From positions 160,001 through 224,000 of the forward strand of contig CBDCYI010000004.1 in the NCBI GenBank assembly GCA_965224085.1: a stretch of DNA of 64,000 nucleotides. The letters run 5' to 3'. The notes under the pieces are model-generated. The model was not told the origin of the DNA. It made no database searches and was given only the letters and a program-made list of their open reading frames with translations. Each line of letters opens with the position of its first letter. Within the stretch, counting starts at the first letter, position 1. Shown here piece after piece: positions 8,875 to 64,000 of this stretch. The position numbers and the translations under genes are program-made. The stretch is from Candidatus Marinacidobacterales bacterium (lineage in GTDB: Bacteria > Acidobacteriota > Vicinamibacteria > Marinacidobacterales > SMYC01).

Positions 8875-9024
8875 CTTTGGTGGCATTCTAGCAGGCAAAA
8901 GAGAATTTCACTCGCCTGGGTACTTTCGAGTGAACGAACGATTTCGGTCACTCCCCGATGACCTCCGCCCACGCGGGCGGTGCCCTTGCTGTCAAATTGA
9001 GCTGGTGACTGACAGAATGGTCCA

Positions 9025-9729
9025 ATGAAGACCGATGCGCCAAGCTACCACGGCTATCGATTTCCACCGGAAATCATCAGCCACGCCGTCTGGCTCTACC
9101 ACCGATTCTGCGTGAGCTTTCGAAACGTCGAAGAGCTGCTTGCTCAGCGAGGCATCACGGTTTCCTACGAAGCGATCCGACTTTGGTGCATCAAGTTCGG
9201 GCCGGAATACGCTCGGCGACTGAAGCGTCGGCAGGGTCGCCTTGGTGACACGTGGCACCTGGACGAGGTCTTCATAAAGATACAAGGCGAACGCCAATAC
9301 CTCTGGCGCGCGGTAGACCAAGATGGTGATGTGATTGATATCCTCGTCCAGCCTCGCCGTGATCAGAAAGCCGCCAAACGATTCTTCCGCAAGCTGTTGA
9401 AAGGGCAAGGCCGTCCGCCCTGGCAGCTGGTCACCGACAAACTGAGAAGCTACAGCGCCGCTCACCGCGAGGTCATGCCGTCCGTCGTCCACGACACTGA
9501 CCAGTACAGAAACAACCTAGCCGAAGTCTCGCACGAACCGACGCGACAACGGGAACGACAGATGCGGAAGTTTAAAACTCCTGGGCAGGCGCAACGATTC
9601 TTGACCGTGCATGGACTCGTGCAAAACCTCTTTCGCGTCGGACGGCATTTGTTGCAAGCGCATCATCATCGGGAGCTACGAGACCGCGCTTTCATCGTCT
9701 GGCAGGAGGTAACCTGTGCCGTCCGATGA
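9025..9729 (+). CDS. IS6-family DDE transposase
   Basis: YHGYRFPPEII, WHLDEVF, YLWRAVD, VTDKLRSY, NNLAEVSH. Confidence 0.95.
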   Translation: MKTDAPSYHGYRFPPEIISHAVWLYHRFCVSFRNVEELLAQRGITVSYEAIRLWCIKFGPEYARRLKRRQGRLGDTWHLDEVFIKIQGERQYLWRAVDQDGDVIDILVQPRRDQKAAKRFFRKLLKGQGRPPWQLVTDKLRSYSAAHREVMPSVVHDTDQYRNNLAEVSHEPTRQRERQMRKFKTPGQAQRFLTVHGLVQNLFRVGRHLLQAHHHRELRDRAFIVWQEVTCAVR

Positions 9730-9790
9730 GAGCAAAGGAAATCAGCTCGACGCAATAGGTTCGCTCGCTCAACGTCAACTAATAAGAAAC

Positions 9791-11044
9791 TCAGGGTGTA
9801 GCGTTGGCAAGAGGTGTGAGAGTGACGTCAAAACCGAGCTCCCTTAGGCGTCGTGTCATTCGTATTGTGAGCTGTTCCTTGTCGCGTTGATGGAAGTAAT
9901 CGGCACCCAGTTCCCGGTATGGAATCTCATTGTGGAGCATGTAGTAGACGGCGGTGATGATGGAGGCGGCGACGGCGACGACAGCTTTCTTGGGGCCCCG
10001 ACGAGATTTGAGCCGGAAGAACTGGGCACGCAGATAGCTGTCGCGCTTGCGGCTTGCCGCCCAAGCGGCTTGGACAAGAGCGGTCTTGAGCCATGGAGCC
10101 CCTTTGCGGGTTTTCTGAGAAAAGCGTTTACCGGCACTCTCATGAAGCCGTGGGCATAGACCGGCCCAAGAGCGAAGGTGTCCGGCCGTTGGGAATGCCG
10201 AGACATCGGGTCCGATCTCGGCGACGAGAATGGCCGCCGTGGCTTCACTGATGCCCGGGATCGTCACCAGAAGCTCGACGGCCGATCGAAAAGGGCGCAG
10301 GCTCTCTGTGATACGGGATTCGAGCGCGCTCACTGAGGCTTCAAGCTGCTCGATATGATTGAGATGAAAACCCAACAGGAAACGATGATGGTCGGTAACG
10401 TAGCCCTCGAGCGCTGCGCTCAATTCCTGTTCAGTGGCTTTGAGTCGGCTTGAGCCCAGCTCACTCAGCTTGTGAGGGTCGCTTTCTCCCGCAATGATCG
10501 CTCGGAGAATCGCCCGCCCGCTTACTCCCAAAATCGTGCTAATCACGCTCGTCAATTTGATGTTCGCGTCTTCCAACGTCTTTTGAATTCGCTGGGTCTC
10601 CCGAGCGATTTCTCGAACGAACTGCTTTCGCGTTCGGGTCAGCTCTCGCAGTTCCTGGATCGGCGTTGGCGGAACGAAGCTAGCTCGAATGAGACCATGG
10701 GCAAGCAAATCCGCTATCCACAAGGCATCACTGATATCGCTCTTACGACCCGGCATGTTCTTGACGTGGGCCGGTTGTGCCAACACCAACTCAAAATGAC
10801 CTTCGAGCACATGCCACACCGGCTTCCAATACACTCCGGTCGCTTCCATCGCTACAATCGTGCAACCGCACTGCCCCAGCCAATCCAACATTTCCAGCAA
10901 TTCGCTCGTGGCCGTGCCGAACACACGCGTCTCGCGCACCACCTTCCGCTTCGTCGCTACCCGCACGCAAGCCGTAATCGATTTCTGGTGGACGTCCAAT
11001 CCGGCGCATCGCTTATGAACCACTCTCATCGCAGCCTCCTTCAC
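9791..11044 (-). CDS. IS110-family DEDD recombinase/transposase
   Basis: GLDVH, MEATG, KSDISDA (DEDD); WAGLCPRLHESAGK (catalytic Ser region). Confidence 0.95.
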   Translation of the reverse strand: MKEAAMRVVHKRCAGLDVHQKSITACVRVATKRKVVRETRVFGTATSELLEMLDWLGQCGCTIVAMEATGVYWKPVWHVLEGHFELVLAQPAHVKNMPGRKSDISDALWIADLLAHGLIRASFVPPTPIQELRELTRTRKQFVREIARETQRIQKTLEDANIKLTSVISTILGVSGRAILRAIIAGESDPHKLSELGSSRLKATEQELSAALEGYVTDHHRFLLGFHLNHIEQLEASVSALESRITESLRPFRSAVELLVTIPGISEATAAILVAEIGPDVSAFPTAGHLRSWAGLCPRLHESAGKRFSQKTRKGAPWLKTALVQAAWAASRKRDSYLRAQFFRLKSRRGPKKAVVAVAASIITAVYYMLHNEIPYRELGADYFHQRDKEQLTIRMTRRLRELGFDVTLTPLANATP

Positions 11045-11258
11045 GTCGCACCGGCGTGGAGCCCACGAACTTGTAATCTAATAGACGCGCTCAACTATCC
11101 CAGCTGGAATAGAAAACGCAATTTGGGGTACGCGCAGGACTCCCAGCCAAACTTGACAACGGGCTCAGTCGCACCAACGTTAAGCCGACCTCTGAGCCGG
11201 TGCCACCTTCACAGACTACCGCGTTTCATTCATTCGGGGTGGCCGTCAGGCCGTGGAA
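11045..11258. ncRNA. Candidate IS110 bridge/seek RNA in the non-coding end
   Basis: About 210 nt upstream of the recombinase with several stems and target/donor-like segments (AACTTGACAA 11150-11159, CAACGTTAA 11175-11183, CTAATA 11078-11083); transcript strand and ends unknown. Confidence 0.65.
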
Positions 11259-11272
11259 AACTTGACAATACC

Positions 11273-11374
11273 GTCATGGGTCACCTTGTCTTCGGTGCCA
11301 TTCTGGGCGGCAGCTACGGGTGGATCTCGATCCCGGCGTGCTCCTCTTCAGGACTGGCAGCCGAGGCGCCCTGA
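11273..11374 (+). pseudogene. 3' remnant of a membrane-protein gene cut at the IS6 end
   Basis: MGHLVFGAILGGSYGW...* begins right at the IS6 right IR. Confidence 0.5.
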
Positions 11375-11385
11375 CCCGAGTAGAT

Positions 11386-11418
11386 CGACCCCCTGGACAT
11401 CAGTCCGAGGGGTCGACT
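11386..11418. terminator. GC-rich hairpin (possible terminator)
   Basis: TCGACCCC-CTGGAC-ATCA-GTCCGA-GGGGTCGA inverted repeat after the stop at 11374; no U-tract. Confidence 0.4.
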
Positions 11419-11459
11419 TCCCCCTCGAGTTTCGAGGACCAAACACGGTAGAGAAAAAG

Positions 11460-12221
11460 ATGATTCAAAACGAGGACCAACCGACACGACTTCGTTGCTC
11501 AGAAATCTGGGGCGGCATTGGGAATACGGATCTGGATGTTTCTACCAGACCAGTGACGACGAGCTTATTCTCCAGCGCATCCGATAGCGACAGCGGCGGT
11601 GATGTTTATTACTTCAGTGTCTGCTCCCGCAACACGATCGTTCGGATCGCGATGGCCGACGTGATGGGCCACGGACGTGCCGTGAGCACGATGAGTCAGT
11701 GGATGTACACCGCTCTCGTCGAGAGCATGGACAGCATCCATAGTAACGACATACTCGGCGATCTCAACCGCCTTGCCAACGAACGAGGTCATGAAGCCAT
11801 TACCACAGCGGTAGTGTTCAGCTTCCGGGTCGACAACTCCGAGCTGTACCTATCGTATGCGGGGCACCCGCCCGTGTGGATTCGCCGGCACAGGGAGGGC
11901 GTGTGGCAGCCGCTTGCACAAAAGCAACAGACTCAGCCAATGAACCTCCCGCTGGGTATGTTTCCTGGTACCAAATACAGCCAGCAGCAGCTTCGCCTCG
12001 ATTCGGGCGACCGAACTTTGGTGTTCACCGACGGCCTCATAGATGCGCCGAGCAAAAACGGCCAGCCTTTCGGTCACGAGCGGCTTCGAGCCGCTCTGGA
12101 AGAGGCTGGCGGCGGGACTCTGTTCCACCTCAAACAAAGTGTTCTCGCGGCCGTGCGCTCGCATACCGGCGGCTCCCTTGGTCACGACGATTTGACGCTT
12201 ATTGCGGTAGATGTGCATTAG
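11460..12221 (+). CDS. PP2C/SpoIIE-type Ser/Thr phosphatase
   Basis: GGDVYY, ADVMGHG, YAGHPP, FTDGLID, DDLTLI. Confidence 0.9.
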   Translation: MIQNEDQPTRLRCSEIWGGIGNTDLDVSTRPVTTSLFSSASDSDSGGDVYYFSVCSRNTIVRIAMADVMGHGRAVSTMSQWMYTALVESMDSIHSNDILGDLNRLANERGHEAITTAVVFSFRVDNSELYLSYAGHPPVWIRRHREGVWQPLAQKQQTQPMNLPLGMFPGTKYSQQQLRLDSGDRTLVFTDGLIDAPSKNGQPFGHERLRAALEEAGGGTLFHLKQSVLAAVRSHTGGSLGHDDLTLIAVDVH

Positions 12222-62145: not shown

Positions 62146-62301
62146 AAGCTCTTCCGCGTCGGGCGTCACCTGTTGCGTGCTCCTAATCATCGAGATCTCA
62201 GAGGCCGTGCATTCCTCGCGTGGGACGCGGCACCAATCGCGACGTGATCCGAACGGCCAACGTCACTCCGGCGGCGCCGGCGTGCGTGCGCAACGTCAAC
62301 T
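62146..62301 (+). mobile_element. IS6-family 3' remnant; right IR continues at 63784-63792
   Basis: KLFRVGRHLLRAPNHRDLRGRAFLAWDAA* (stop 62245-62247) aligns with the C-terminus of the 9025-9729 transposase. Confidence 0.85.
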
Positions 62302-62311
62302 AATAAGAAAC

Positions 62312-63565
62312 TCAGGGTGTAGCGTTGGCAAGAGGTGTGAGAGTGACGTCAAAACCGAGCTCCCTTAGGCGTCGTGTCATTCGTATTGTGAGCTGTTCCT
62401 TGTCGCGTTGATGGAAGTAATCGGCACCCAGTTCCCGGTATGGAATCTCATTGTGGAGCATGTAGTAGACGGCGGTGATGATGGAGGCGGCGACGGCGAC
62501 GACAGCTTTCTTGGGGCCCCGACGAGATTTGAGCCGGAAGAACTGGGCACGCAGATAGCTGTCGCGCTTGCGGCTTGCCGCCCAAGCGGCTTGGACAAGA
62601 GCGGTCTTGAGCCATGGAGCCCCTTTGCGGGTTTTCTGAGAAAAGCGTTTACCGGCACTCTCATGAAGCCGTGGGCATAGACCGGCCCAAGAGCGAAGGT
62701 GTCCGGCCGTTGGGAATGCCGAGACATCGGGTCCGATCTCGGCGACGAGAATGGCCGCCGTGGCTTCACTGATGCCCGGGATCGTCACCAGAAGCTCGAC
62801 GGCCGATCGAAAAGGGCGCAGGCTCTCTGTGATACGGGATTCGAGCGCGCTCACTGAGGCTTCAAGCTGCTCGATATGATTGAGATGAAAACCCAACAGG
62901 AAACGATGATGGTCGGTAACGTAGCCCTCGAGCGCTGCGCTCAATTCCTGTTCAGTGGCTTTGAGTCGGCTTGAGCCCAGCTCACTCAGCTTGTGAGGGT
63001 CGCTTTCTCCCGCAATGATCGCTCGGAGAATCGCCCGCCCGCTTACTCCCAAAATCGTGCTAATCACGCTCGTCAATTTGATGTTCGCGTCTTCCAACGT
63101 CTTTTGAATTCGCTGGGTCTCCCGAGCGATTTCTCGAACGAACTGCTTTCGCGTTCGGGTCAGCTCTCGCAGTTCCTGGATCGGCGTTGGCGGAACGAAG
63201 CTAGCTCGAATGAGACCATGGGCAAGCAAATCCGCTATCCACAAGGCATCACTGATATCGCTCTTACGACCCGGCATGTTCTTGACGTGGGCCGGTTGTG
63301 CCAACACCAACTCAAAATGACCTTCGAGCACATGCCACACCGGCTTCCAATACACTCCGGTCGCTTCCATCGCTACAATCGTGCAACCGCACTGCCCCAG
63401 CCAATCCAACATTTCCAGCAATTCGCTCGTGGCCGTGCCGAACACACGCGTCTCGCGCACCACCTTCCGCTTCGTCGCTACCCGCACGCAAGCCGTAATC
63501 GATTTCTGGTGGACGTCCAATCCGGCGCATCGCTTATGAACCACTCTCATCGCAGCCTCCTTCAC
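62312..63565 (-). CDS. IS110-family DEDD recombinase/transposase
   Basis: 417-aa translation identical to 9791-11044. Confidence 0.95.
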   Translation of the reverse strand: MKEAAMRVVHKRCAGLDVHQKSITACVRVATKRKVVRETRVFGTATSELLEMLDWLGQCGCTIVAMEATGVYWKPVWHVLEGHFELVLAQPAHVKNMPGRKSDISDALWIADLLAHGLIRASFVPPTPIQELRELTRTRKQFVREIARETQRIQKTLEDANIKLTSVISTILGVSGRAILRAIIAGESDPHKLSELGSSRLKATEQELSAALEGYVTDHHRFLLGFHLNHIEQLEASVSALESRITESLRPFRSAVELLVTIPGISEATAAILVAEIGPDVSAFPTAGHLRSWAGLCPRLHESAGKRFSQKTRKGAPWLKTALVQAAWAASRKRDSYLRAQFFRLKSRRGPKKAVVAVAASIITAVYYMLHNEIPYRELGADYFHQRDKEQLTIRMTRRLRELGFDVTLTPLANATP

Positions 63566-63779
63566 GTCGCACCGGCGTGGAGCCCACGAACTTGTAATCT
63601 AATAGACGCGCTCAACTATCCCAGCTGGAATAGAAAACGCAATTTGGGGTACGCGCAGGACTCCCAGCCAAACTTGACAACGGGCTCAGTCGCACCAACG
63701 TTAAGCCGACCTCTGAGCCGGTGCCACCTTCACAGACTACCGCGTTTCATTCATTCGGGGTGGCCGTCAGGCCGTGGAA
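63566..63779. ncRNA. Candidate bridge/seek RNA, copy 2
   Basis: Same sequence as 11045-11258. Confidence 0.65.
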
Positions 63780-64000
63780 AACTTGACAATACGCCACGAC
63801 AACTTCTCGTCTCACAGCGCCGTATGGTAACCGGCGTCGCGGTCTGCGAGTTACAACAGATCCGCCGCCATACGGGATCGAGCGAGCCGTCGATTCATTC
63901 CGTTCCCGCACAGCTTCGCAAGGAATGGAATCTTCCGTTGAAGTGTGGGATGATCCTTTGCGTCCAACAAGATGTTTATCGAGCCCGGAGCCCATCTTCA

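What the first reader, a model, noticed from the sequence alone, without database searches (positions are those of the whole stretch)
9770..11272. IS110 that targets the right inverted repeat of IS6 elements (two independent hits)
Seen: both IS110 copies have identical short flanks, CAACGTC-AACT on the left and AACT-TGACAATAC on the right, beyond which the flanks diverge. Removing copy 1 rebuilds TCAACTTGACAATACC. Its reverse complement (GGTATTGTCAAGTTGA) matches the IS6 left IR at 8985-9000 and has the terminal GG. Copy 2 sits at the same nucleotide downstream of a diverged IS6 transposase tail, so this is not a duplicated IS6+IS110 block. The left IR reads AAATT instead of AAGTT, lacks the core and is unoccupied. 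Known: IS110/IS1111 recombinases are RNA-guided, and IS4321/IS5075 target Tn21-family IRs; I know of no described IS6-IR specialist. Inference: a hyperparasitic IS uses IS6 ends as safe harbours and immobilises the IS6 until precise excision restores the IR.
Basis: partly seen in the sequence, partly recalled or inferred. Interest (0 to 1): 0.9.

Follow-up and report, generated by a model that had tools for sequence, protein, structure and literature searches.

The report
IS110 element aimed at IS6 ends
A small RNA-guided jumping gene (IS110 family) carries guide sequences that match the terminal repeat of a different jumping gene (IS6 family) and inserts there again and again, a new example of a known habit rather than a new kind of system.

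Summary
Two identical IS110-family copies (window 9781-11262 and 62302-63783) sit at the same nucleotide of IS6-type right inverted repeats with otherwise unrelated flanks. Genome-wide there are 8 full copies, 2 truncated ones and about 15 miniature 142-bp derivatives. All have TGACA on one side. 15 of 22 sites are IS6-type repeat ends, as are 7 of 7 junctions in five other genomes. 31 empty IS6 right ends and a tandem junction show the shared flanks are target, not element.

The upstream non-coding end encodes a conserved structured RNA. In 78 relatives its guide matches each element's own left junction (0 mismatches in 61; control 0 of 1560). Here it reads TGTCA-AG-TT, positions 6-14 of the IS6 repeat.

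- The left repeat is not empty. It holds a 66-bp miniature of a second IS110-family element that targets positions 1-11 of the same repeat.
- The two left/right repeat mismatches fall in the two elements' AG cores, so each end accepts only one element.
- IS110-family elements that target another insertion sequence's repeats are already in print (IS1383/IS1384).

Immobilisation of IS6 is untested; the outer 14 bp of the repeat survive insertion.

The parts
8919..8924 (+). Outermost 6 bp (GGTACT) of the IS6 left inverted repeat
   Evidence: All IS6 copies start GGTA(C/T)T; flanks diverge upstream of it
8925..8990 (-). 66-bp miniature derivative of a second IS110-family element ('B'), inserted at GGTA-CT|GTCAA inside the IS6 left repeat
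   Evidence: Present in 13 of 24 IS6 copies placed on the tree and absent from 11. Its start is 83-87% like the left end of the full-length element B
8991..9006 (+). Inner part of the IS6 left inverted repeat (GTCAAATTGAGC...), with AA where the right repeat has AG
9025..9729 (+). IS6-family transposase, 234 aa
   Evidence: PF13610 DDE_Tnp_IS240, E 6e-38; about 35 copies or fragments in the genome
9765..9778 (+). Inner part of the IS6 right inverted repeat; this is the right-target side of IS110-A (TTGACG... on the minus strand)
   Evidence: Continuous with TGACAATACC in 31 empty copies
9779..9780 (-). Core dinucleotide (CT on +, AG in transposase orientation), left copy
   Evidence: AG is invariant at both junctions in the relatives that passed the AG-anchored motif search (79 of 80); tandem junction
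9781..9790 (-). Right end (RE) of IS110-A, only 10 nt; it holds the left-donor sequence TTATT next to the core
9791..11044 (-). IS110-A transposase/recombinase, 417 aa
   Evidence: PF01548 E 4e-28 and PF02371 E 2e-23; six copies translate to 100% identical protein in the listing
11045..11260 (-). Left end (LE) of IS110-A, encoding the bridge-RNA-like structured non-coding RNA
   Evidence: Alignment of 44 LEs: 30 consensus pairs, 16 of them with compensatory changes
11078..11084 (-). Left-donor guide (CUAUU-AG)
   Evidence: Matches the element's own right end with 1 mismatch. In the family, 0 mismatches in 47 of 69 loci versus 6 of 1380 in the control
11150..11158 (-). Left-target guide (UGUCA-AG-UU), identical to IS6 repeat positions 6-14
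   Evidence: 0 mismatches to its own left junction. In the family, 61 of 78 loci have 0 mismatches versus 0 of 1560 in the control
11178..11185 (-). Candidate right-target guide (GCUUAACG); UUAAC can pair with G-TTGA of the target
   Evidence: Position 7 pairs with the core G in 87% of 48 relatives; the remaining positions covary only weakly. Tentative
11261..11262 (-). Core dinucleotide, right copy
11263..11272 (+). Outermost 10 bp of the IS6 right inverted repeat (TGACAATACC, i.e. GGTATTGTCA read from outside); TGACA at 11263-11267 is the left target of IS110-A
   Evidence: TGAC follows every one of the 23 copies listed and TGACA follows 21 of them; flanks diverge after CC
62149..62244 (+). 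Degenerate tail of an IS6 transposase gene upstream of copy 2
   Evidence: tblastn, 59% identity to residues 202-233, E 2.9e-5
62302..63783 (-). IS110-A copy 2, identical to copy 1, at the same nucleotide of a degenerate IS6-type right repeat (outer part 63784-63793, TGACAATACG)

Best explanation
The feature is an IS110-group insertion sequence ('IS110-A'). It is 1482 bp counting one core copy, with a 417-aa DEDD recombinase on the minus strand, a 216-nt left end and a 10-nt right end. Its left end encodes a bridge-RNA-type structured RNA. The 3' strand of the first internal loop carries a left-target guide, UGUCA-AG-UU. The 5' strand carries a probable right-target guide, UUAAC. Together they specify TGTCA-AG-TT-R-R, which is positions 6-16 of the IS6-type terminal inverted repeat GGTATTGTCAAGTTGA. 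A second loop carries a donor guide that matches the element's own right end. Recombination at the AG core places the element inside the repeat in one orientation, with the recombinase gene pointing into IS6, and without any duplication beyond the core. IS6-type repeat ends (on full IS6 copies, on short units bounded by such repeats, and on remnants) carry roughly three quarters of all copies of this motif in the genome. They are therefore the main landing site. Shown here: the anatomy, the insertion sites, the empty sites, guide-target and guide-donor covariation across relatives, and the RNA's conserved pairing. Inferred from the published IS621 mechanism: that the RNA binds the recombinase, that a circular intermediate forms, and that excision is scarless. 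A second IS110-family element ('B', about 1.69 kb, plus a 66-bp miniature) reads TTGAC-AG-TACC on the other strand, which is repeat positions 1-11. The left and right IS6 repeats differ at positions 5 and 12, and each difference falls in one element's AG core. Hence A fits only right-type ends and B fits only left-type ends.
For: Family identity: Pfam PF01548 and PF02371. Sites in this genome: 8 full or near-full copies, 2 truncated copies and about 15 miniatures. The right flank begins TGAC at all 23 listed elements and TGACA at 21 of them (one miniature has TGACG; one abuts the next element in tandem). The five bases upstream of TGTCA match GGTAY at 4 or more positions at 11 of 18 sites (chance about 3% each, my arithmetic), and 4 further sites are left repeats already split by the 66-bp element, giving 15 of 22. 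Flanks are target, not element: 31 empty IS6 right ends read ...GTCAACTTGACAATACC, and a miniature and a full copy abut in tandem sharing AACT with no TGACA between them. Other genomes: 7 of 7 LE-side junctions in G033, G003, G012 and G010 read TGACAGTACC (5), TGACAATGCC (1) or the split left repeat (1), and diverge after CC; the G016 copy is cut before that end, but its left flank resembles the inner part of the IS6 right repeat. Guides: in 78 unique upstream regions of 57-66% identical relatives from many phyla, the 9-mer after a conserved GCCCGU equals the element's own left junction with 0 mismatches in 61, 1 in 13 and 2 in 4. The control with another locus's 9-mer gave 0 of 1560 at 0 mismatches. 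There are 41 distinct 5-mers. Donor guide: 0 mismatches in 47 of 69 loci versus 6 of 1380 in the control. RNA structure: 30 consensus pairs, 16 with compensatory changes; two stems close the two guide-bearing loops. Element B shows the same layout, with GCCCGU followed by UUGAC-AG-CA and GGUAC placed where A has UUAAC. Motif counts: TGTCAAGTT occurs 99 times versus 23 expected; TGTCAAGTTGA occurs 47 times versus 1.4 expected. Co-occurrence: close copies of A (86% or more protein identity) were found in 6 of 41 related genomes (G000 included). All 6 hold the 98-100% identical IS6. None was found in the 27 genomes with no IS6 match. These genomes are kin and are not independent.
Against: Six of 22 sites are not clearly repeat-like (rows 0, 4, 6, 8, 15, 19), and row 9 matches only 3 of 5. 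By my hand classification, about a quarter of motif-bearing sites are occupied both inside and outside IS6-type repeats, so nothing beyond the roughly 11-nt motif needs to be recognised. Only 3 of 34 right ends of the major IS6 are occupied in this genome. Of the 12 IS6 loci fetched from other genomes, 7 were parsed and all 7 are empty; 5 lie on the other strand and were not parsed. The right-target guide is weakly supported in the family: the mean best complementary run is 3.36 versus 2.94 when shuffled, with 0 of 1000 shuffles reaching the observed value; per-position pairing is 43% or less beyond the core. No right-donor guide was identified. Guide order in the loop (right 5', left 3') is the reverse of what I recall for IS621, and I did not check that recollection. 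No Rfam family matched. The single-sequence fold was no better than shuffles (z 0.02). No RNA, circle or excision product was observed; only contigs were available.
Confidence: 0.85

Rival explanations
1. The link with IS6 is incidental. The element simply targets a short generic motif containing the promoter-like hexamer TTGACA, IS6 repeats happen to contain it, and there is no specialisation or dependence on IS6.
For: The left-target guide is only 5 nt plus the core. About 6 of 22 sites are not repeat-like. Occupancy of motif sites is similar inside and outside repeats (hand count).
Against: The 11-mer occurs 47 times versus 1.4 expected, almost always in an IS6-type repeat context. 15 of 22 local sites and 7 of 7 junctions in other genomes are repeat ends. 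Close copies of A were found only in genomes that also hold the near-identical IS6. A second IS110 element reads the overlapping part of the same repeat.
Confidence: 0.1
2. The shared flanks (CAACGTC-AACT and TGACAATAC) belong to the IS110 itself, so no IS6 repeat is being targeted.
For: TGACA follows 21 of the 23 listed copies, which on its own could suggest it is part of the element.
Against: 31 uninterrupted IS6 ends carry the joined sequence with no IS110 present. A tandem miniature-plus-full junction lacks TGACA. Left flanks before AACT vary. In relatives the equivalent 5 nt vary (41 different 5-mers) and are tracked by the guide.
Confidence: 0.01
3. The two window copies are one duplicated IS6+IS110 block, or a repeat-collapse assembly artefact.
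For: The two copies are 100% identical, and repeats are where assemblies fail.
Against: Flanks differ on both sides. The IS6 tail beside copy 2 is only 59% identical in protein. The same junction type recurs at over 20 loci and in five other genomes. A 4442-base contig of run X15 runs from inside the IS110 (11246) into the unique right flank, but that run may come from the same sample as the assembly.
Confidence: 0.02

Closest known systems
IS1383 of Pseudomonas putida H, which integrates specifically into the inverted repeats of IS1384 (Muller, Lauf & Herrmann 2001)
   Same: An IS110-family element whose specific target is the terminal inverted repeat of another insertion sequence. This is the same ecological arrangement as here.
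   Different: I saw only the title, in the reference list of PMC11208160; the paper is not held. By its name IS1384 is a different insertion sequence, and I could not check its family. Nothing is known to me about its guides, miniature derivatives or a second element sharing the same repeat.
[quoted passage not shown]
   Same: A DEDD-recombinase insertion sequence that inserts at one position and orientation in the terminal repeat of another transposable element.
   Different: Those elements are in the IS1111 group, with sub-terminal inverted repeats (title in the reference list; Introduction passage of PMC11187229). According to passages read, the guide RNA of that group lies downstream of the transposase gene. 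Element A is in the IS110 group: long left end, 10-nt right end, guides upstream. Its target is an IS6-family insertion sequence, not a Tn3-family transposon.
IS621 and its bridge RNA (Durrant et al. 2024, PMC11208160)
   Same: A recombinase with PF01548 and PF02371. The RNA is encoded in the left end. It has two internal loops, one reading the target and one reading the donor. The left guide has the same sense as the top strand and includes the core. Excision is scarless via a circle (passages read).
   Different: The IS621 recombinase is much shorter (315-330 aa versus 417 aa). Its core is CT and its natural target is a REP element with a 7-nt left target. Here the left target is 5 nt, the core is AG in recombinase orientation, two further guide bases match the element's own first bases, and the left guide lies on the 3' strand of its loop. 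No Rfam model matched.

Membership tests
IS110 family, IS110 group | DEDD (RuvC-like) N-terminal domain plus the IS116/IS110/IS902 C-terminal domain | tested here: met
   PF01548 E 4.4e-28 and PF02371 E 1.8e-23 on window 9791-11044, minus strand
IS110 family, IS110 group | Long non-coding left end upstream of the recombinase gene and a short right end (opposite to IS1111) | tested here: met
   LE 216 nt (11045-11260), RE 10 nt (9781-9790); criterion taken from PMC11208160 section 12
IS110 family, IS110 group | No terminal inverted repeats and no target duplication other than the shared core | tested here: met
   By inspection of the ends, AATAAGAAAC... and ...GGCCGTGGAAAA are not inverted copies of each other. 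Only AACT is shared at both junctions. No repeat-finding tool was run.
IS110 family, IS110 group | Site- and orientation-specific insertion | tested here: met
   Same nucleotide and orientation at more than 20 sites here and at 7 junctions elsewhere
IS110 family, IS110 group | Circular double-stranded intermediate and scarless excision | not testable with these tools
   Only assembled contigs of public runs were available. The circle-junction sequence also exists in the chromosome as a tandem junction.
Bridge RNA of IS110 elements | Conserved structured RNA encoded in the non-coding end | tested here: met
   44 left ends aligned: 30 consensus pairs, 16 with both-side compensatory changes
Bridge RNA of IS110 elements | Loop segment that covaries with the left target plus core | tested here: met
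   0 mismatches in 61 of 78 loci, 1 in 13, 2 in 4; control 0 of 1560 at 0 mismatches
Bridge RNA of IS110 elements | Loop segment that covaries with the left donor plus core | tested here: met
   0 mismatches in 47 of 69 loci, 1 in 20; control 6 of 1380 at 0 mismatches
Bridge RNA of IS110 elements | Right-target guide complementary to core plus right target | tested here: inconclusive
   Candidate position 7 pairs with the core G in 87% of 48 loci; the next positions pair in 43%, 37% and 29%. The shuffle test is modest. It fits well in A (UUAAC to G-TTGA) and in B (GGUAC to G-TACC).
Bridge RNA of IS110 elements | Right-donor guide | tested here: inconclusive
   No convincing segment was found by inspection of alignment A1
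Bridge RNA of IS110 elements | Match to a curated RNA family model | tested here: not met
   No Rfam 15 family at E of 1 or less on window 9600-11500. This may only mean that this subfamily is not in Rfam.
IS6 family (the target element) | Single DDE transposase of the IS240/IS26 type in an element of about 0.8 kb | tested here: met
   PF13610 E 6.3e-38; 234 aa; 806-bp element without inserts
IS6 family (the target element) | Short terminal inverted repeats beginning with GG | tested here: met
   Left GGTA(C/T)TGTCAAATTGA, right GGTATTGTCAAGTTGA, 14 of 16 positions alike
IS6 family (the target element) | 8-bp target duplications | tested here: not met
   0 of 23 copies have matching 8-mers at their two ends. 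From general knowledge, IS6-family copies often lack them after cointegrate resolution or recombination between copies.
IS110-family elements that target terminal repeats of other transposable elements (IS1383, IS4321/IS5075) | Fixed position and orientation inside the terminal inverted repeat of another mobile element | tested here: met
IS110-family elements that target terminal repeats of other transposable elements (IS1383, IS4321/IS5075) | IS1111-type anatomy (sub-terminal inverted repeats, long right end), as in IS4321/IS5075 | tested here: not met
   A has a long left end and a 10-nt right end. It works like those elements but belongs to the other group.

The most novel reading that the evidence does not exclude
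Two separate bridge-RNA IS110 lineages have divided the two ends of one IS6 family between them. The only two left/right repeat mismatches (positions 5 and 12) each fall in one lineage's AG core. Together with their 66-bp and 142-bp miniatures, the two lineages act as reversible, scarlessly excisable blocks on IS6 transposition. This would be a layered parasite-on-parasite network that travels with IS6 between genera.
Probability: 0.2. Interest if true: 0.8.

Novelty: new member of a known kind. Interest (0 to 1): 0.55.

Why it matters
IS110 elements are the natural source of bridge recombinases. Every well-documented natural guide-target pair helps to define the guide code outside the IS621 branch. 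This locus gives a clean, internally controlled case for the long-recombinase IS110 branch. It shows a 5-nt left guide plus an AG core plus two bases that match the element's own start, a donor guide, many occupied and many empty sites in one genome, and a natural one-base discrimination between the two IS6 ends. It also shows one mobile element family serving as the main landing pad for two others and their miniatures. This bears on how insertion sequences limit damage to the host and possibly restrain one another. The habit itself, an IS110-family element in another element's repeat, is already known, so this extends existing knowledge rather than overturning it.

Tried and rejected
- Single-sequence fold of the left end: energy no better than shuffles (z 0.02). 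It was uninformative and was replaced by the comparative fold.
- Rfam scan: no match at E of 1 or less.
- First guide-parsing pattern failed on all 81 sequences because of an off-by-one in my pattern. I corrected it.
- Right-target guide: only weak family-wide covariation, so it is kept as tentative.
- Right-donor guide: not found.
- 8-bp direct repeats around IS6 copies, looked for in order to test whether IS6 copies carrying inserts had transposed as units: none at 0 of 23 copies, so the test gave no answer.
- Tree of 26 IS6 cores, to ask whether the 66-bp insert arose once: long and short forms are interspersed. Well-supported branches force at least 4 changes, and identical cores occur in both states. 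Gene conversion between copies cannot be excluded.
- Public runs: all 24 listed runs are kept as contigs. Laying 4 of the 24 (X15, X17, X1, X2) showed the miniature form as a joint (9856 to 11193 in X15, X1 and X2), the empty IS6 end as a loose end, and the right junction joined to the unique flank in X15. It showed no excision product at this locus and no circle, and contigs could not have shown them. Depths are not copy numbers and I draw nothing from them.
- I rejected the idea that the 546-bp element nested beside two IS6::miniature junctions is IS110-related. It encodes an IS200-type Y1 transposase.
- Promoters at the circle junction or at the integrated junction: inspected by eye only, with nothing convincing; the promoter scan tool was not run.
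- Literature: six searches found no paper describing an IS110-family element in IS6-family repeats. That claim rests on those searches only.
Supplementary Table 1 of PMC11208160 (known targets) and the target logos behind Fig. 8 of PMC11187229 might list such a case, and I could not see them.
- What I read of each paper. PMC11187229: passages and section 13. PMC11208160: passages and section 12. PMC11208158, PMC13626964, the 2025 bioRxiv preprint 10.1101/2025.10.25.684509 and PMC12288879: search listings and abstract starts only. Muller 2001 and Partridge & Hall 2003: titles in reference lists only.
- Three points are recalled, not taken from a call: the 'handshake' reading of the two extra guide bases, the guide order in the IS621 loop, and the 14-bp repeat of IS26.
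Full report
**What is at the coordinates**

Window 9781-11262 is an IS110-family insertion sequence, here called IS110-A. Its 417-aa ORF (9791-11044, minus strand) carries PF01548 (E 4e-28) and PF02371 (E 2e-23). In recombinase orientation it has a 216-nt non-coding left end (11045-11260) and a right end of only 10 nt (9781-9790). A second, identical copy lies at 62302-63783.

Immediately to the left of copy 1 is an IS6-family element. Its 234-aa ORF (9025-9729) carries PF13610 (E 6e-38).

Copy 2 follows only a degenerate IS6 transposase tail (59% identity to residues 202-233). The two copies are therefore separate insertions, not a duplicated block.

**The flanks are target, not element**

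- The window's genome (G000: 6.87 Mb, 12 contigs, 60% G+C) holds about 35 copies or fragments of this IS6.
- Thirty-one of them end ...CTCAACGTCAACTTGACAATACC, after which every flank differs. This is exactly the sequence obtained by removing the IS110.
- At contig C4, 27.9-29.5 kb, a miniature copy and a full copy abut. They share AACT and have no TGACA between them.
- The element therefore runs from AATAAG... to ...GGAAAA plus one core copy, and TGACA belongs to the target.

**Genome-wide sites**

BLAST found 8 full or near-full copies, most 99-100% identical. Two of them have an altered left end, and one of those is 98% identical. It also found 2 truncated copies, a few fragments, and 12 complete plus 3 partial or tandem miniatures of about 142 bp. 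The miniatures consist of the first 80 and last 70 bases of the element.

The right flank begins TGAC at all 23 listed elements and TGACA at 21 of them. One miniature has TGACG, and one abuts the full copy in tandem. The left flank before AACT varies.

I classified 22 sites that have a left-end junction by the five bases upstream of TGTCA, compared with the IS6 terminus GGTAY. The counts below are my own, read from that output:

| Class | Sites |
|---|---|
| 5 of 5 match | 5 |
| 4 of 5 match | 6 |
| IS6 left repeat already split by a 66-bp insert | 4 |
| 3 of 5 match | 1 |
| 2 of 5 or fewer | 6 |

One of the last six lies in a short repeat unit, and one has CGTCA in place of TGTCA. Chance of a 4-of-5 or better match is about 3% per site (my arithmetic). 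So 15 of 22 sites are IS6-type repeat ends.

Three of these are right ends of the major IS6. Copy 1 in the window holds a full IS110-A. Two others hold a miniature, each with an IS200-like element nested beside it.

**Other genomes**

Among 41 related genomes (G000 included), copies with 86% or more protein identity to A occur in six: G000, G033 (a different family), G016, G012, G003 and G010.

All 7 junctions on the left-end side in the loci fetched from four of these (G033, G003, G012, G010) read TGACAGTACC (5), TGACAATGCC (1) or the split left repeat (1). All diverge after CC. The G016 copy is cut before that end. Its left flank ends ...GACGTC-AACT, like the inner part of the IS6 right repeat.

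None of these loci has an IS6 transposase gene within the fetched 1.5 kb. There, the element sits in short repeat-bearing units or remnants.

All five other genomes do hold the same IS6 at 98-100% protein identity, with 4 to 51 matches each. Of the 41 genomes, 14 have an IS6 match at E of 1e-60 or better. The six genomes with A are a subset of these, and none of the 27 genomes without an IS6 match has A. These genomes are kin, so this is a consistency check rather than a statistical test.

**How the site is read**

A scan of one genome per species returned 80 loci with recombinases 57-66% identical to A, from many phyla. Their upstream regions share a conserved layout:

- GGUCG, then about 8 variable nt, then UGGUGC...GAGCCCGU, then 5 variable nt, then AG and 2 nt, then GGACC;
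- further on, GAGCRCG, then 5 variable nt, then AG.

The evidence that these variable segments are guides is as follows.

- **Left-target guide.** The 9-mer (5 nt + AG + 2 nt) equals the element's own left junction about 105-140 nt upstream. It has 0 mismatches in 61 of 78 unique regions, 1 in 13 and 2 in 4. With a 9-mer taken from another locus, 0 of 1560 trials gave 0 mismatches. There are 41 different 5-mers.
- **Left-donor guide.** The second variable 7-mer equals the element's own right end with 0 mismatches in 47 of 69 loci. The control gave 6 of 1380.
- **RNA structure.** RNAalifold on 44 left ends gives 30 pairs, 16 of them with compensatory changes. There is a long outer stem. One stem closes the loop that holds the first variable block and the target 9-mer. 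Another stem closes the loop that holds the donor 7-mer.

This matches the published bridge-RNA logic, in which the left guides have the sense of the top strand and include the core (passage of PMC11208160). It differs from IS621 in four ways: a 5-nt left guide, an AG core in recombinase orientation, two extra bases that match the element's own first bases, and the left guide lying on the 3' strand of its loop.

For IS110-A the target 9-mer is UGUCA-AG-UU (11150-11158). It is identical to positions 6-14 of the IS6 right repeat G1-G-T-A-T-T-G-T-C-A-A-G-T-T-G-A16.

The first variable block (GCUUAACG, 11178-11185) can pair through UUAAC with G-TTGA. That fits the observed right flanks: TT follows AG at 12 of 14 distinct sites, usually followed by G. 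Family-wide support for this block as the right guide is weak, so I mark it tentative.

**A second element on the same repeat**

The IS6 left end is GGTACT at 8919-8924. Between it and the inner repeat (8991 onward) lies a 66-bp insert. It is present in 13 of the 24 IS6 copies placed on the tree that carry the short or long label, and absent from 11.

The start of the insert resembles the left end of another IS110-family element, 'B'. Element B is about 1.69 kb, carries PF01548 and PF02371, and has 8 copies. Every B copy is flanked by CAA(T/C/G)TTGACAG on one side and TACC on the other. It therefore sits at GGTA-CT|GTCAA of an IS6-type repeat.

B's left end has the same GCCCGU anchor, followed by UUGAC-AG-CA. 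It has GGUAC where A has UUAAC. B thus reads TTGAC-AG-TACC, the complement of repeat positions 1-11.

The left and right repeats differ only at position 5 (C versus T) and position 12 (A versus G). Position 5 lies in B's core and position 12 lies in A's core. So A fits right-type ends and B fits left-type ends. The exception is consistent with this rule: a diverged IS6 whose left repeat reads AAGTT does carry a full IS110-A there.

On a tree of the IS6 cores the forms with and without the 66-bp insert are interspersed. Well-supported branches force at least 4 changes. The insert has therefore been gained or lost repeatedly, or has been moved between copies by recombination.

**Specialist or motif?**

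TGTCAAGTT occurs 99 times in the genome against 23 expected from base composition. TGTCAAGTTGA occurs 47 times against 1.4 expected. The 99 sites break down as follows:

| Class of TGTCAAGTT site | Count |
|---|---|
| Occupied junctions | 22 |
| The guide inside IS110-A copies | 9 |
| Empty right ends of the major IS6 | 31 |
| Other empty sites | 37 |

By my reading of the contexts, about 22 of the 37 other empty sites are also IS6-type repeat ends.

Occupancy is thus about one quarter both inside and outside repeats. I conclude that recognition needs nothing beyond the roughly 11-nt guide-coded motif. The element counts as an IS6-repeat specialist only because IS6-type repeats carry most copies of that motif.

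**Immobilisation**

- After insertion the outer junction still reads GGTATTGTCAAGTT, which is 14 of the 16 repeat positions, because the element begins with TT as the displaced repeat does.
- No target duplications flank any IS6 copy (0 of 23), so movement of composites cannot be traced.
- Only one full IS6::IS110-A composite exists in this genome.
- Scarless excision is a published property of the family. I did not observe it here, because only contigs of public runs were available.

**Comparison with what is known**

The habit is known. IS4321 and IS5075 target Tn21-family repeats, and IS1383 targets the inverted repeats of IS1384. I saw only the titles of those two papers, in reference lists.

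Six full-text searches found no report of an IS6-family repeat as an IS110 target. The supplements that might list one are closed.

I therefore file this as a new member of a known kind. Its added value is the guide code for this IS110 branch, the pair of elements that split one repeat between them, and their miniatures.

Noticed in passing
window 8925-8990; also 12 other IS6 copies in G000: A 66-bp miniature of a second IS110-family element sits inside the IS6 left repeat at GGTA-CT|GTCAA. It is present in 13 of the 24 IS6 copies labelled short or long on the tree, and the two states are interspersed there (at least 4 changes forced by well-supported branches).
   Followed up: yes
L141 (G000 contig C5, 946200-948100) and 7 other copies: Full-length second IS110-family element ('B', about 1.69 kb, with PF01548 and PF02371). 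It is always flanked by CAA(T/C/G)TTGACAG and TACC, i.e. it lies in IS6-type repeats. Its left end holds UUGAC-AG-CA after the same GCCCGU anchor as in A. The L141 copy carries a 62-bp internal insert that shortens the ORF to 390 aa.
   Followed up: partly
G000, 12 complete and 3 partial loci (for example contig C9 751918-752067); seen as the joint 9856 to 11193 when contigs were laid on the window: Miniatures of IS110-A of about 142 bp (first 80 plus last 70 bases). They lack the recombinase gene and all guide segments but keep both ends. Most are only 82-86% like A in the 80-base part. The same deleted form appears in contigs of runs X15, X1 and X2.
   Followed up: partly
L142 (G000 contig C9, 26840-27600) and about 35 other loci: A 546-bp IS200-like element (Y1_Tnp, E 3e-40) with hairpin ends. 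It is nested at two IS6::miniature-A junctions. Parts of it are fused to the altered left end of two IS110-A copies (contig C4 at 30980 and at 1400039).
   Followed up: partly
G000 contig C9 about 107157-107256 and contig C11 about 614736-614835: Pairs of IS6-type terminal repeats face each other about 100 bp apart, so they look like miniature IS6-type units. Similar short units carry several of the A and B insertions, both here and in G033.
   Followed up: partly
G002, G003, G010, G012, G016, G021, G033: The same IS6 transposase occurs at 98-100% protein identity in genomes of different genera and of two families, with up to 51 matches in one genome. IS110-A is 99% identical in G033. This points to recent horizontal spread of both elements.
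   Followed up: partly
L092, L096, L106, L116 (Vicinamibacterales records): In some relatives the right-target flank is the left-end start of another copy, and the left-target flank is another copy's right end. These elements therefore insert into or beside each other in tandem.
   Followed up: no
L072, L074, L075, L078, L084, L086 (one Planctomycetota record set): A 62% identical relative with many copies has the same 15-base left flank (ending CCGAACC) at several loci, next to a hairpin-like CCGCCTAAAGGCGG motif. Its target also appears to be a repeated element.
   Followed up: no
G000, 23 IS6 copies: No IS6 copy, with or without inserts, is flanked by an 8-bp direct repeat.
   Followed up: yes
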